From the NCBI GenBank assembly GCA_963845755.1, contig CAWJTV010000036.1, forward strand, positions 128,001-192,000: 64,000 nucleotides of DNA, read 5' to 3'. Both the position numbers and the translations under genes were made by a program. The notes beneath the pieces are model-generated. The model did no database searches. It had not been told where the DNA came from and worked only from the letters and a program-made list of their open reading frames with translations. The DNA comes from an uncultured Planctomycetota bacterium (GTDB lineage: Bacteria > Planctomycetota > Planctomycetia > Isosphaerales > Isosphaeraceae). Below are positions 9,667-32,469 of the stretch, piece after piece; the first letter of the stretch is position 1; each line of letters begins with the position of its first letter.

Positions 9667-12600
9667 GGAAACTGTCCTATTGTAAGACGCTGGGTGAATT
9701 ACGACTTGCGCGATAAGATCGGATTCCACAATATGTCCGATTTCAGCAATGGGACCTGAGTCGGTCATTTGCGCGTGCGTACATGGGACCTCGTGACACT
9801 GGACTTGCCCCGTGCAGCAATCACTCCACTCTCGGGCGTGCAGGGTGTCGCGCCCGCCTTTGGTGGCGATGTAAAGCACCAAGTCTCCATGGAATACGTC
9901 CGGCCGAAAGCCGTGGGCAAGTGAAGCGTTATGACAGATCAAGGGGAACACGCGATTCGCCTGCTCGAGACTGAGCTCTCCCAGCGGATGCTCTCGTTCG
10001 CGCACTTTCGCAATGATGGTGCTCAGATCCAGCGGTCCGCCATCAAGATCAACGGAGCTCAAGCCCGCCAATTCCGCGAGGGCATGGAGTGTCTCCCCTT
10101 CCTGCAAGTTCGATCGATCTTGCGGGTCGTGAAAACGAAAACTATCGAGAAGCCCCAGGAAGGTGACCGTTTCCTTCTCGGATTGCAACCGGCAAGCGAC
10201 GGCATGGGCCACAATGCCACCGAAGGACCAGCCCAATAAGTTGTAAGGACCCGTGGGCTGGATCTCGCGGATCGCGATCAGATAGTCTTCGACAACTTCT
10301 GCGATCGTGCCTGGTAAGCTCAACCCATTCTCGATGTACGAAGCCTGTAAACCGTATAGCGGGCGATCCGAATGGATCGCGGGCAGCAATCCCGCATAGC
10401 TCCAACTCAACCCGCCGGCAGGCGGGAGGCAAAACAAAGGCGGCAGCGTCCCGCTCGCTCGGAGTGGAAGGACACGATCAAAGGGGCTTTCCACCGACGG
10501 CCTGGACTTGAGACAGGCGTGGAGCGTGGCGACGGTGGGCGCCTCGAAGAGGGTGCGCAGGGAGAATTCGACGCCCAGGGTCGCGCGGATGCGGCTGGCA
10601 AGCTGGGTGGCCAGGAGGGAGTGGCCGCCGAGGTCGAAGAAATGGTCATCGCGGCCGACACGTGGCAAACCCAGTACCTGAGCAAAGAGCTCACAGAGGA
10701 GCTGCTCCTCGGGAGTGCGGGGGGGTTGGTATGGATGTCCTCCCAGCCGGTCGGGAGCCGGCAGGGCCCGGCGATCGAGCTTGCCATTGGGGGTCAGCGG
10801 CAAGGCGTCGAGGATCACCCAGGCGCCCGGCACCATGTGGTCGGGCAGGCGGCGCGACAGGGCAGCGCGCAACCGGGCCGGGTCCGGCATCGCGCCCGGG
10901 GAGGCCACCACATAGGCGGCCAGGTACTTGCCGCCAGGCCCATCGTCGCGAGTGATGACGGCGGCCTGGGCGACCTCGGCCTCGAGCCGCAACGTCGCCT
11001 CGATCTCGCCCGGCTCGATCCGAAAGCCGCGGATCTTCACCTGATCATCGGCGCGGCCCAGGTATTCCAGCACGCCGTCGGCCCGCCGCCGCGCCCGGTC
11101 GCCGCTGCGGTACATCCGCGCCGGGCGGCCCGTGGGGGTCGGCGACGAAGCGTTCGGCCGTCAGTGCGGGACGGTTCAAGTAGCCCCGGGCCAGGCCCAG
11201 GCCGGCGATGTATAACTCCCCCGGCGTCCCCGGCGGGACCGGTTCCAGCCCATCGTCCAGCAGGTAGATGCGGGTGTTCGCGATCGCCGCGCCCAGCGGC
11301 GGCGGACCCGAGCCGGAGAGCGGCTCGCTCATGGTGGCACAGACGGTCGTCTCGGTCGGGCCGTAGGCATTGATCATCCGCCGGCCGGGCGCCCACCGGC
11401 TCGCGATCGCCTCCGGGCAGGCTTCGCCGGCGACGATCAGGCCCTCCAGGGCCACCCCGGCCGCGTCCAGTCCCGCCAGGACCGACGGGGTCAGGGTCGC
11501 GTGGGTGACCCGCTGGTCGGCCAGCATCCGCTGGAGTGCGGCGCCGGTCCGCTCGGGGTCGCGGGGCACGATCAAGGTGGCGCCGGCCAGGAGGGCCACG
11601 GCGATCTCGGCCAGCGAGGCATCGAAGCTGATCGAGGCGAACAGCAAGGCGCGGGCATCGGGCTTCACGGCCAGGCGTTCGATCTGGGCGAGGGCCAGGT
11701 TGGGGATGCCGGCATGGGTGACGACCACGCCCTTGGGGGTGCCAGTGGAGCCGGAGGTATAGATGACATAGGCCGGGTGCCCCGGCCGCAGGGGGCAGGT
11801 GCGCTCTGCGTCCGTCGGGTCGTGGCCCGAGGGACCGGGCGACTGCCACTCGAATATCGTCGCTGTCGAGCAAGACGAGCGGCGCCGCACCGGCCGGCAG
11901 CCGGCCCTGCAACGCGGCCGTCGTCAGCACCGGCGCCGCGCCGGCGTCCGCGAGCATCTGCGCCAGTCGGCCCGGCGGGTAGTCGGGGTCCAGGGGCAGG
12001 TAGGCGGCACCGGCCTTGAGGATGCCCAGCACGGCCACGATCAACTCGGCCGACCGCTCCAGGGCGATCCCCACAAGGCGCTCCGGGCCCACCCCCTGCC
12101 CGATCAGCCAGTGGGCCAGGTGATTGGCGCGACGGTTCAACTCGGCATAGCTGAGGGTCTCCTGATCGAAGACCAGCGCCGGGGCCGCGGGGGAGCGGCG
12201 CACCTGGTCCTCGAAGAGCTCCGGCAGGCTGGCCTCGGGGACCGGCCGGCTGGTGGCGTTGAAGGCCTCCAGGAGCATGTGCCGCTCCTGCGTCCTCCAG
12301 CCAGTCCAGTCGGTGGAGCGGGATATCGGGATGCGCGACGGCCGATTCCAGCAGGCGCACCAGCCGCGCCGCCATCGCCTGCGCCGTGGGGCGCTCGAAG
12401 AGGTCGAGGCTGTATTCCAGGGCGCCGGTGAGGCCCCGAGGCGTCCGGTCGGCGTCGCAGGCTTCCTGGAAGTGGAAGGTGAGGTCGAAGCGGGCGAAGT
12501 CGGGGGTCAACTCCTCCACGCGGCCGTTGAGCCCGGGCAGGGCGGCCTCGACCCCGCGGTCGTTCTGCAGGACGAGCATGACCTGGAACAGCGGGTTGCG

Positions 12601-30600: not shown

Positions 30601-32469
30601 GGTTCGCGGCGCCGGTGTCAGGGGCAGTCGGCCGGCGGGCCCGGAGTGGAGGCGGGGTGCCAGGGCGGCGACGGTGGGCGCCTCGAAGAGGGTGCGGAGG
30701 GGGAATTCGACGCCCAGGGCATGGCGGATGCGGCTGGCGAGCTGGGTGGCCAGGAGGGAGTGGCCGCCGAGGGCGAAGAAATGGTCATGGCGACCGACGC
30801 GAGGCAGGGCCAGGACCTGGGCAAAGAGGTCACAGAGGACCTGCTCCTCCGGAGTGAGGGGCGGTTGGTACTCACGTTCGGCCAGTCGATCGGGGGCCGG
30901 CAGGGCGCGGCGATCGAGCTTGCCATTGGGGGTCAGCGGCAAGGCGTCGAGGATCACCCAGGCGCCGGGATCATGTGGTCGGGCAGGCGTCGCGAGAGGG
31001 CGGCGCGCAACCGGGCCGGATCGGGCGTCGCGCCCGGAGAGGCCACCACGTAGGCGGCCAGGTACTTGCCGCCCGGGCCATCGTTGCGGGCGATGACGGC
31101 GGCCTGGGCGACCTCGGCCTGGAGCCGCAACGTCGCCTCGATCTCGCCCGGCTCGATCCGAAAGCCGCGGATCTTCACCTGATCATCGGCGCGGCCGAGG
31201 AAATCCAGGGCGCCGTCGGCCCGCCGCCGCGCCCGATCGCCGCTGCGGTACATCCGCGCGCCGGGCGGCCCGTGGGGGTCGGCGACGAAGCGTTCGGCGG
31301 TCAGCCCCGGGCGGTTCAGAGTAGCCCCGGGCCAGTCCCGAGCCGGCGATGTACAACTCCCCCGGCGTCCCCGGCGGGACCGGCTCCAGGGCCTCGTCCA
31401 GGACGTAAATTCGGTAGTTGGGGAGCGGATCGCCCAGATCGACGGTGCCAACGGACCCATTCAGATGAGTCAATGCGCGTGCGCTCGCCCAGATGGTGGC
31501 TTCAGTCGGGCCGTAGAGATTGCAGACATAGCGGCCCATTTGACTCAATTGTCGCGCCAGATCGACTGGCAGGGCCTCCCCCCCGACGAGGATGCGCAGG
31601 TCTTCGAGGCACGAAGAATCGTGGTCGATCAGGAGATGCCACTGGCTGGGGGTAGCCTGCAGGGAATCTACGCGAGAATCTCGGATCAGAGCGGCCAATC
31701 TGACCGGATCACGTGCGTCGTCCTTGGCAGCCAAGACCACGGTCGCGCCATGGATCAGCGGGAGAAAGAGCTCCAGTACGGAGATATCAAAGGCGATCGT
31801 GGTAACCGCCAGGTGTCGATCTCCGGGGGCAAAAGTGACCCATGAGGCGATACCGTCAATGAATGCCGATAGACTGCGATGTTCGATGACCACGCCCTTG
31901 GGCGCCCCCGTCGAACCCGAGGTATAGATGACATAGGCCGGGTGCCCCGGCCGCAGGGGATCGGTCCGCTCCCGGTCCGTCGGGTCGTGTCCGGGGGACC
32001 GGGCGACTCCCGCCCGAACGGCGTCGCTGTCCAGCAAGACGAACGGCGCCGCACCGGCCGGTAGCCGGTCCTGCAACGCGGCCGTCGTCAACACCGGCGC
32101 CGCGCCGGCGTCCTCGAGCATCTGCGCCAGCCGGCCCGGCGGGTAGTCGGGGTCCAGGGGCAGATAGGCGGCGCCGGCCTTGAGGATGCCCAGCACGGCC
32201 ACGACCAGCTCGGCCGACCGCTCCAGGGCGATCCCCACAAGGCGTTCCGGGCCCACCCCCTGCCCGATCAGCCAGTGGGCCAGGTGATTGGCGCGACGGT
32301 TCAACTCGGCATAGCTGAAAATCTCCCCGCCGAAGGCCAGCGCCGGGGCCTGGGGCGTGCGGCGCACCTGGTCCTCGAAGAGTTCCGGCAGACTGGCATC
32401 GAGGACCGGCCGGCTGGTGGCGTTGAACCCTTCCCGCAGGGTGTGCCGCTGATCGGTTCTCATTAACAT
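9667..32469 (-). CDS. Six-module non-ribosomal peptide synthetase, A1-T1-C-A2-T2-E-C-A3-T3-E-C-A4-T4-E-C-A5-T5-C-A6-T6-TE, broken by many single-base indels
   Basis: Six YTSGSTG/GELYIA/NGKLDR A domains; T domains GGHS (T1,T5,T6) and GGDS (T2-T4); E domains ([23 protein letters not shown]); LCL-type C (HHIASDG) after T1 and T5; DCL-type C (HHILMDGWS) after each E; TE GWSFGG. Whether this is one gene or several cannot be resolved. Confidence 0.93.
9720..13630 (-). other. NRPS module 6 (C-A-T-TE), same aromatic specificity as module 2
   Basis: A6 is near-identical in DNA to A2. [23 protein letters not shown]. Confidence 0.7.
10702..14465. repeat. Intragenic NRPS duplication R2, copy 1 (~3.76 kb)
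   Basis: Near-identical to 27672..31434 (offset ~16970). Both begin CTGCTCCTCGGGAGTGCGGGGGGGTTGGTATGG and end GGTAGTTGGGGAGCGGATCGCC. Confidence 0.92.
13680..16780 (-). other. NRPS module 5 (C-A-T), predicted Orn/basic-type residue
   Basis: Code DPENLGIVNK, resembling the hydroxy-ornithine code DMENLGLINK. Atypical GGDVF and YGPSE motifs. Confidence 0.45.
14905..18429. repeat. Intragenic NRPS duplication R1, copy 1 (~3.5 kb; T end-E-C-A N-terminus)
   Basis: Near-identical to 24106..27629 (offset ~9200). The same shadow ORFs appear at both places in the ORF track. Confidence 0.92.
16840..21365 (-). other. NRPS module 4 (C-A-T-E), predicted D-aromatic (Tyr/Trp-like or modified) residue
   Basis: Code DGSTISGVCK, aromatic-type with no exact match that I recognise. 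Its C-A DNA is distinct from the other modules. Confidence 0.5.
21420..25980 (-). other. NRPS module 3 (C-A-T-E), predicted D-Gln-like residue
   Basis: Code DAWQFGLIQK, 9/10 to the Gln code DAWQFGLIDK. Boundaries approximate. Confidence 0.6.
21932..22708. repeat. Third near-identical copy of the E-domain N-terminal half
   Basis: Matches 17330..18108 and 26530..27308. Confidence 0.85.
24106..27629. repeat. Intragenic NRPS duplication R1, copy 2
   Basis: Matches 14905..18429. Confidence 0.92.
26040..30620 (-). other. NRPS module 2 (C-A-T-E), predicted D-aromatic residue
   Basis: Code DAATIAAVCK, close to GrsA Phe DAWTIAAICK and to Tyr-type codes. Boundaries approximate. Confidence 0.6.
27672..31434. 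repeat. Intragenic NRPS duplication R2, copy 2
   Basis: Matches 10702..14465 with scattered substitutions. Confidence 0.92.
30660..32469 (-). other. NRPS module 1 (A-T), predicted Gly
   Basis: Code read by eye against GrsA: DILQLGLIWK, the established Gly code. Confidence 0.75.

What the first reader, a model, noticed from the sequence alone, without database searches (positions are those of the whole stretch)
10702..32469. NRPS built from one near-identical chassis with swapped-in, lower-GC specificity subdomains
Seen: 24106-27629 is near-identical to 14905-18429, and 27672-31434 to 10702-14465. The order in transcription direction is R2-R1 ... R1-[~440 bp unique]-R2. In A1, A3 and A5 identity breaks right after the KGV.IEHR motif and resumes at the G.P..N.RIY motif. 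The cores between (~31435-31870, ~23650-24105, ~14466-14904) are unique and more AT-rich (e.g. GAATAATTTCATAATTGTGATTATTTTTAAG at 14471). Known: this interval is the substrate-binding subdomain whose natural exchange was described for hormaomycin and is used in NRPS engineering. Inference: recent module duplication plus three subdomain recombinations from foreign donors, with crossover points readable to a few bases.
Basis: partly seen in the sequence, partly recalled or inferred. Interest (0 to 1): 0.82.

Follow-up and report, generated by a model that had tools for sequence, protein, structure and literature searches.

The report
Homogenised NRPS scaffold around ancestral cores
In this six-module peptide-synthetase gene, five modules share nearly identical scaffold DNA around very different amino-acid-selecting segments, and distant relatives carry matching segments in the same order, so the scaffold was likely copied over the old modules rather than the segments being imported, which is a clean case of a known process.

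Summary
The gene is a six-module NRPS (about 7,600 aa read through 17+ likely assembly indels) in a likely planctomycete genome. The repeats are real (99.1% and 98.0%), and identity in A1, A3 and A5 collapses at the stated borders.

The cores are not foreign implants. Three full-length homologs (one an actinomycete MAG) have the same module order, with equal or near-equal specificity codes at five of six positions and unhomogenised flanks. Cores group with these homologs by position; flanks group by gene (AU tests reject both congruent trees). Core GC3s (0.65) equals the TE (0.64). The repeated scaffold is the outlier (0.90, above the host's 95th percentile).

Best reading: repeated intragenic gene conversion spread one scaffold, stopped at cores of different specificity, and ran through A2/A6, which share a code. 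NRPS concerted evolution and core-edge hotspots are published, and this scan saw a similar case on other DNA. Why every repeated segment is GC-rich remains open.

The parts
9700..32481 (-). Six-module NRPS: A1-T-C(L)-A2-T-E-C(D)-A3-T-E-C(D)-A4-T-E-C(D)-A5-T-C(L)-A6-T-TE, about 7,600 aa when read through 17+ likely assembly indels
   Evidence: motif map; read-through with X; domain spacing; Pfam/NCBIfam
31437..31876 (-). A1 specificity core, unique, code DILQLGLIWK (Gly type, assignment recalled), GC3s 0.65; positional match in homologs 51-55% aa with identical code
23653..24103 (-). A3 specificity core, unique, code DAWQFGLIQK (Gln/Glu-like, recalled), GC3s 0.63; homolog module 3 DAWQAGLIQK, 44-45% aa
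   Evidence: 5' junction spanned by an independent contig 23984-24214
14466..14902 (-). A5 specificity core, unique, code DPENLGIVNK (substrate not assigned), GC3s 0.67; homolog module 5 DPENLG[LM]VDK, 44-49% aa; 68% to P0151
   Evidence: junction also present in non-identical record P0071
28268..28700 (-). A2 core, code DAATIAAVCK (Phe/Tyr-like, recalled), GC3s 0.94, 98.5% nt to the A6 core
11296..11728 (-). A6 core, same code as A2, homogenised with it; cores 2 and 6 are only 64-74% aa alike in the homologs
18430..21950 (-). Unconverted block (E3 3' part, C4, A4). A4 code DGSTISGVCK is aromatic-type where all four homologs have DAFWLGGTFK (Val type, recalled); GC3s 0.71-0.83
24106..27629 (-). 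Repeat X copy 1 (T end-E2-C3-A3 5' flank), GC3s about 0.88-0.91
14905..18429 (-). Repeat X copy 2 (T end-E4-C5-A5 5' flank), 99.1% to copy 1; differences cluster at 14940-15056 and 16509-16657 and are AT-richer in this copy (18 vs 6)
27502..31441 (-). Repeat Y copy 1 (A1 3' flank-T1-C2-A2)
10529..14470 (-). Repeat Y copy 2 (A5 3' flank-T5-C6-A6), 98.0% over 10702-14465
21950..22700 (-). Converted patch in the middle of E3, 97-100% to E2/E4, between unique stretches
22900..23653 (-). A3 3' flank and T3, A2/A6-type (while the A3 5' flank is closest to A5)
31877..32330 (-). A1 5' flank, 89-91% nt to the other scaffold copies; the first ~45 codons of A1 are more divergent
9700..10480 (-). Thioesterase domain, unique, GC3s 0.64
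7906..9666 (-). NodU/CmcH-type carbamoyltransferase, in frame with the TE in this assembly (true fusion or lost stop not resolved), GC3s 0.69
5787..7898 (-). 703-aa protein with no Pfam or NCBIfam family; found beside a carbamoyltransferase in most fetched loci
32948..34105 (-). Cupin_8 (JmjC-like) protein upstream of the NRPS, likely a tailoring oxygenase

Best explanation
Five of the six A domains share 88-98% identical flanks around unrelated specificity cores that match distant homologs position by position, most likely because repeated gene conversion between modules copied one scaffold over the flanks, T, C and E domains while sparing the old cores. Shown: the mosaic, the tree incongruence, the conserved order of cores in homologs, and the composition pattern. 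Inferred: tracts start in conserved flanks and end where homology drops or where overwriting a core would change the peptide and be selected against; where two modules pick the same residue (A2/A6) the tract ran through the core. There were several rounds: about 62-75% (A4 flanks), 88-95% and 98-100% identity layers. The scaffold's A flanks, T and L-type C domain came earlier from an NRPS lineage other than the homolog family, while E, TE and module order are the family's. The product would be a hexapeptide Gly-(D)aromatic-(D)Gln/Glu-like-(D)aromatic-X-aromatic, with possible hydroxylation and carbamoylation (prediction from recalled codes, untested).
For: (1) P0159 (Actinomycetia MAG), P0164 and P0247, plus partial P0013 (Trebonia MAG), have A-start, six modules and TE with codes DILQLGLIWK / DAATIAGVCK / DAWQAGLIQK / DAFWLGGTFK / DPENLG[LM]VDK / DAATLAAVCK, against DILQLGLIWK / DAATIAAVCK / DAWQFGLIQK / DGSTISGVCK / DPENLGIVNK / DAATIAAVCK in the window. 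They were the only 4 of 263 proteins with 3 or more of the 4 core types. The L,D,D,D,L C-domain pattern is shared. (2) In these homologs paralogous flanks are 31-60% (5') and 60-76% (3') alike, C2/C6 48-68% and cores 2/6 64-74%; in the window C2/C6 is 99% and cores 2/6 98.5%. (3) Core tree: A1, A3 and A5 join modules 1, 3 and 5 (89/90, 96/93, 100/99). Flank trees: window flanks form their own clade. AU tests reject A1+A3+A5 cores as a clade (p=2.5e-48) and positional flank clades (p=1e-52, 2e-5, 3e-54). (4) GC3s of cores 0.649 vs TE 0.639 (p=0.81) vs repeats 0.898; the cores' codon usage fits TE+carbamoyltransferase+C4 at least as well as the host and far better than the scaffold. (5) Informative sites in the flanks switch partition in blocks: adjacent-same 10 vs 4.7 expected (p=0.002) and 35 vs 17 (0 of 20,000 permutations). 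(6) A related strain's contig differs at 18 of 354 sites where the two window copies differ at 0; also 11/209 vs 4/209 and 8/187 vs 2/187. (7) E2/E3 rank the homologs within the top 6 of 139 and top 5 of 135; TE ranks them 2, 4 and 5 of 54.
Against: The homologs are only about 50% identical, and positions 3 and 5 were selected by the searches that found them. Cores group by substrate in any NRPS tree, so the order, not the tree alone, carries the argument. Core 3 is as close (45-46%) to unrelated NRPSs P0367/P0357, which have its exact code, as to the family (44-45%); with such proteins included its support falls to 84, and A2/A6/A4 cores sit in a polytomy. C(L), T and A flanks rank the family low (C(L) 152-209 of 376), so the scaffold is not simply inherited. 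Cores are slightly lower in GC3s than other unique NRPS parts (0.649 vs 0.714, p=0.012). The strain comparison rests on a few low-depth contigs, and that strain is not shown to hold both copies. No spanning reads were available, so polishing could have inflated X/X identity.
Confidence: 0.8

Rival explanations
1. One reading: one module was duplicated recently and three specificity subdomains were then recombined in from foreign, AT-richer donors.
For: Sharp breaks at the known hotspot positions (PMC7486941 passages). Cores are far lower in GC3s than their flanks. The scaffold belongs to a different NRPS lineage than the homolog family. Core 3 has equally close relatives in that lineage.
Against: It needs three imports to recreate the order found in distant homologs, plus family-type E and TE. 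The three cores share one GC3s (p=0.73), equal to the TE. A3's two flanks come from different sister modules. A relative, P0151, already has a core-5-type domain (68%) joined to a scaffold-type 3' flank (76%) and this TE type (67%). No close donor was found: the best core-5 matches are 68% and a variant of this same junction (P0071).
Confidence: 0.1
2. Variant on the best explanation for the GC contrast: a single GC-rich 7.3-kb tract (24110-31440) came from a sister cluster in a GC-rich host and then served as donor for all other copies.
For: Nearly every repeated segment has a copy inside 24110-31440 (E3 patch). The other X copy is AT-richer at differing sites (18 vs 6). The scaffold's C-rich four-fold sites (0.62-0.74) are at or near the host's 99th percentile.
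Against: The tract stops exactly at the edges of cores 1 and 3, which a sister cluster with the same cores need not do. It is itself internally homogenised (92-95%). The Y copies show only a weak bias (26 vs 18). No GC-rich donor was found (best plasmid match 69%; none close in 40 relatives).
Confidence: 0.4
3. The repeats or their near-identity are artefacts of long-read assembly or polishing.
For: At least 17 frameshifts show an unpolished or poorly polished assembly. X has perfect tracts of 852 and 1495 bp. No read spans a repeat.
Against: The copies carry their own substitutions and indels. Short-read contigs match copy-specific alleles: X2 at 28442-28592 has 0 differences where the other copy has 3, and X1 at 22474-22624 has 0 where E2 has 1. 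One contig spans the core-3 junction and P0071 the core-5 junction. The module order equals that of independent homologs.
Confidence: 0.07

Closest known systems
Concerted evolution of NRPS/PKS domains (Medema et al. 2014, PMC4256081; passages read)
   Same: Cluster-specific clades of A and C domains through internal recombination; domains with diverged function are protected from homogenisation.
   Different: Here the protected unit is resolved to the ~440-bp core inside the A domain, with a same-specificity pair (A2/A6) as an internal control and unhomogenised homologs giving direction.
Natural A-core subdomain exchange (Baunach et al. 2021, PMC8097286, first part and passages read; Calcott et al. 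2020, PMC7486941, passages; hormaomycin case seen only as cited there)
   Same: [quoted passage not shown]
   Different: Those cases describe a core changing and the product changing. Here cores 1, 3 and 5 keep the family's codes and the flanks changed. Only A4 differs in specificity from the homologs.
GRINS (Nivina et al. 2021, PMC8256042; parts 1-3 of 5 read)
   Same: Long (over 500 bp), over 80% identical intra-cluster repeats attributed to gene conversion, with compositional recoding; C-over-G skew on the coding strand (mean -0.13 vs -0.04 in unique parts).
   Different: TA skew is below threshold (0.09-0.13); GC skew is only borderline (0.14-0.21 in the four main regions). The dominant signal is GC3, and the host is a likely planctomycete, not an actinomycete.
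Wollamide/desotamide NRPS (Booth et al. 2022, PMC9205934; passages)
   Same: Hexapeptide NRPS with high identity between duplicated genes and a sharp drop inside an A domain.
   Different: There a donor elsewhere in the genome was identified; here no donor exists and the cores are positional residents. The products are not shown to be related.

Membership tests
NRPS under concerted evolution (gene conversion) | Paralogous domains cluster by gene rather than by position | tested here: met
   Flank trees and AU tests; C2/C6 99% vs 48-68% in homologs
NRPS under concerted evolution (gene conversion) | Paralogs more alike than orthologs of a close strain | tested here: inconclusive
   0/354 vs 18/354, 4/209 vs 11/209, 2/187 vs 8/187, but low depth and the strain's copy number is unknown
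NRPS under concerted evolution (gene conversion) | Patchwork of tracts with switching partners | tested here: met
   Clustered informative sites, p=0.002 and 0 of 20,000 permutations; isolated converted patch in E3
NRPS under concerted evolution (gene conversion) | Non-reciprocal transfer shown directly | not testable with these tools
   Needs population haplotypes or experiment
A-core subdomain swap (hormaomycin type) for A1, A3, A5 | Breakpoints flank the binding subdomain (after the A3 motif, before A6) | tested here: met
A-core subdomain swap (hormaomycin type) for A1, A3, A5 | Core differs from the ancestral core at that position (specificity changed) | tested here: not met
   Codes equal or 1-2 residues from those of homolog modules 1, 3, 5
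A-core subdomain swap (hormaomycin type) for A1, A3, A5 | Identifiable donor with a near-identical core in other flanks | tested here: not met
   Core 5 only: best 68%, under 60% in plasmids, 0 of 400 phylum genomes at E 1e-25. Cores 1 and 3 compared only with 1,494 fetched A domains, best 55% and 46%
A-domain specificity exchange at A4 | Core differs from positional homologs | tested here: met
   DGSTISGVCK vs DAFWLGGTFK; grouping with module 4 rejected at p=0.010; direction of change not rooted
GRINS | Repeat over 500 bp at over 80% identity within the cluster | tested here: met
GRINS | Mean absolute GC skew over 0.15 | tested here: inconclusive
   0.15, 0.14, 0.16, 0.21 in four regions; 0.04 and 0.12 in two others
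GRINS | Mean absolute TA skew over 0.15 | tested here: not met
   0.09-0.13 in all regions; 0.105 vs 0.102 in unique parts

The most novel reading that the evidence does not exclude
The gene records conversion-driven recoding in place (GC-biased gene conversion or a GRINS-like process): GC3 follows whether a segment has a paralogous partner, not where it came from. Repeated segments of both ancestries are about 0.90 (A flanks and C(L) of the scaffold lineage; E of the family). Unique segments of both ancestries are 0.64-0.78 (A4 flanks; E3 3' part, C4, TE, cores 1/3/5). All 48 windows at 92% or more identity have GC3s 0.82-0.95; the 22 windows below 85% average 0.73, and among them GC3s still rises with identity (rho 0.63, some windows straddle junctions). 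If true, a low-GC core in a high-GC NRPS marks the old, protected part, the opposite of the usual reading.
Probability: 0.3. Interest if true: 0.65.

Novelty: new member of a known kind. Interest (0 to 1): 0.4.

Why it matters
First, it is a caution: a sharp identity and GC drop at the A-domain core within one gene does not tell which part moved; here distant homologs reverse the obvious reading. Second, it shows one scaffold carrying four different cores with base-level junctions (about 31876/31437, 24103/23653, 14902/14466), useful as natural templates for subdomain engineering if the enzyme is active. Third, it points to an apparently uncharacterised hexapeptide family shared by actinomycete MAGs and a likely planctomycete. 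Fourth, the link between GC3 and repeat status makes a testable case for biased conversion in bacterial assembly lines.

Tried and rejected
Search for a close orthologous cluster through the 703-aa gene: 1 of 400 other phylum genomes, 4 GTDB loci and 11 metagenome loci (10 of 11 inspected). These show a mobile carbamoyltransferase + 703-aa pair beside unrelated NRPS/PKS genes or none, with no orthologous NRPS.

The scaffold has no close DNA match in 40 relatives (best 66-77% fragments) or in plasmids (69%). Core 5 was not found in 400 phylum genomes at E 1e-25. The ESM Atlas gave only generic AMP-binding clusters.

Argument made and withdrawn: that A1's PLPNY motif was copied from A5 (12 of 12 core-5-like domains have Y, 16 of 18 Gly-type have T). 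The family's own module 1 has the Y natively.

GRINS membership was rejected on TA skew. The host-wide control for GC-biased conversion gave no support: 302 of 4,870 ORFs with a second copy have lower GC3s (0.74 vs 0.78), though these were not classified and may be mobile elements. Copy-private substitutions lean S>W about in proportion to base content and are uninformative.

A link to longicatenamycin was recalled from composition and could not be tested: the passages read give no codes or residue order, so none is claimed. The six sequencing runs held only 4-10% of the words; four were laid and gave short low-depth pieces only. Source names for several hit proteins could not be looked up because that database was unavailable.

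
Full report
WHAT IS THERE. The window is G000:C36:128001-192000 of a 14.3-Mb, 49-contig genome. Neighbouring DUF1501/DUF1549/DUF1553 genes suggest a planctomycete (the association is recalled, and an unreviewed note on this genome says the same). The minus strand from 32481 to about 9700 encodes one NRPS: A1-T-C(L)-A2-T-E-C(D)-A3-T-E-C(D)-A4-T-E-C(D)-A5-T-C(L)-A6-T-TE. 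A cupin gene precedes it; a carbamoyltransferase and a 703-aa orphan follow. A codon-model read-through found 17 frameshifts. Four indels are contradicted by independent short-read contigs of depth 2-2.5, so the gene is likely intact.

OBSERVATION. Confirmed. X (24106-27629 / 14905-18429) is 99.1% and Y (27672-31434 / 10702-14465) is 98.0% identical. The flanks of A1, A2, A3, A5 and A6 are 88-98% alike; unlike cores are 39-45% nt, with breaks right after KGVxIEHR and at GxPxxN. Against an artefact: copies carry private substitutions; contigs from other runs match copy-specific alleles; one contig spans the core-3 junction; and protein P0071, not identical to the window, spans the core-5 junction. 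No read spans a whole repeat.

COMPOSITION. The cores are AT-richer than their flanks (GC3s 0.649 vs 0.898, p=1e-32). They do not differ from each other (p=0.73), from the TE (0.639, p=0.81) or from the carbamoyltransferase (0.692, p=0.17), and are slightly below other unique NRPS parts (0.714, p=0.012). Host ORFs have median GC3s 0.78 and 95th percentile 0.88 (4,870 filtered ORFs). The repeated scaffold is the outlier; the cores look like the rest of the cluster.

HOMOLOGS. A profile-free search with core 5 returned P0013 (Trebonia MAG, named), collinear with modules 2-5. Searching with its module-3 core gave three full-length relatives: P0159 (Actinomycetia MAG), P0164 and P0247. All three start with an A domain, have six modules, end in a TE, and carry codes DILQLGLIWK, DAATIAGVCK, DAWQAGLIQK, DAFWLGGTFK, DPENLG[LM]VDK, DAATLAAVCK. 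The window has DILQLGLIWK, DAATIAAVCK, DAWQFGLIQK, DGSTISGVCK, DPENLGIVNK, DAATIAAVCK. These four were the only ones of 263 proteins with three or more of the four core types. Positions 3 and 5 were selected by the searches; positions 1, 2 and 6, the A-start, the TE and the L,D,D,D,L C-domain pattern were not. In the homologs paralogous flanks are 31-60% and 60-76% alike, C2/C6 48-68% and cores 2/6 64-74%: the unhomogenised state.

TREES. Cores A1, A3 and A5 join modules 1, 3 and 5 of the homologs, while all six window flanks form one clade (the 3' flank tree is the quick version). AU tests on 24 rows (P0013 and P0151 left out) reject a clade of the three cores (p=2.5e-48) and positional clades of flanks (p=1e-52, 2e-5, 3e-54); the groups were named after the first trees were seen. 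Adding the 16 outside A domains with the most scaffold-like flanks keeps A1 (99) and A5 (97) with the family, weakens A3 (84), leaves A2/A6/A4 unresolved, and places the window's flanks among those outside NRPSs. E and TE rank the family at the top (E2 1, 2, 4, 6 of 139; TE 2, 4, 5 of 54), C(D) fairly high (6-27 of 371), and C(L) and T low. So order, cores 1/3/5, E and TE are the family's, and A flanks, T and C(L) were replaced.

MECHANISM. Inferred: repeated non-reciprocal exchange between modules. Partner sharing switches in blocks along the flanks (p=0.002; 0 of 20,000 permutations). A3 has an A5-type 5' flank and an A2/A6-type 3' flank, and E3 has an isolated converted middle. Identity falls in layers: A4 flanks 62-75% aa, scaffold alleles 88-95% nt, X and Y 98-99%. 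A related strain differs by 4-5% where window copies differ by 0-2% (low depth, copy number unknown). Tracts end at unlike cores, through loss of homology and selection on the product, and pass through the like cores of A2/A6 (98.5%). The one specificity difference from the homologs is A4 (aromatic-type vs Val-type; p=0.010), direction unrooted. Substrate names come from recalled codes and were not assayed.

OPEN POINT. Why is everything repeated GC-rich? Nearly all repeats have a copy inside 24110-31440, which fits one GC-rich donor tract. But GC3 follows repeat status across both ancestries and stops exactly at core edges, which fits biased conversion in place. The data here do not separate these; a crude host-wide control gave no support for bias. 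The repeats miss the GRINS definition on TA skew (definition read in PMC8256042).

COMPARISON AND NOVELTY. [quoted passage not shown] The same pattern (both flanks 85% or more, core under 50%) occurs in 9 of 373 multi-A proteins fetched here, some of them related to each other. An earlier, unchecked note of this scan reports a similar case on other DNA. Searches found no paper with these code strings, none joining planctomycetes, NRPS and gene conversion, and two off-topic listings for GC-biased gene conversion with nonribosomal modules; the library lacks most subscription papers, and no supplements were read.

VERDICT. Real, clean and well polarised, but a new member of a known kind. Interest 0.4.

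Noticed in passing
window 9666-9740 (-): The TE runs in frame into the carbamoyltransferase with no stop; in L016 the two are separate ORFs and P0151 ends after its TE. Either a real fusion or a stop lost to an indel.
   Followed up: partly
P0159, P0164, P0247, P0013 (modules 2-3): The homologs keep E-type T domains and D-type C domains after modules 2 and 3 but lack the E domains there (T-to-A spacing 465-509 aa vs 972-980 in the window); only module 4 has E.
   Followed up: partly
window 5787-9666; L016, L017, L019, L021-L026, L028-L030: A 703-aa protein with no Pfam/NCBIfam family recurs directly downstream of a NodU-type carbamoyltransferase in Acidobacteria, Bacteroidota and metagenome loci, next to different NRPS/PKS genes or none: a mobile, uncharacterised tailoring pair.
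   Followed up: partly
P0308, P0355, P0357, P0367, P0381, P0373, P0277, P0125, P0148: Nine of 373 fetched multi-A NRPSs show the same homogenised-flank, divergent-core pattern; several lie in the same flank lineage as this scaffold.
   Followed up: partly
P0151; P0031: Relatives in which a core-5-type A domain is followed directly by T-TE, as if the last module were absent or the order differed.
   Followed up: no
window 2393-5729: PhyH-type dioxygenase (weak match to the chlorinating-enzyme model, below cut-off), amidohydrolase and a GT9 glycosyltransferase lie downstream; membership in the cluster is unclear.
   Followed up: no
window 308-2248 and 35915-38243: HldE and DUF1549/DUF1553 genes are also split across frames, consistent with assembly-wide indel errors.
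   Followed up: no
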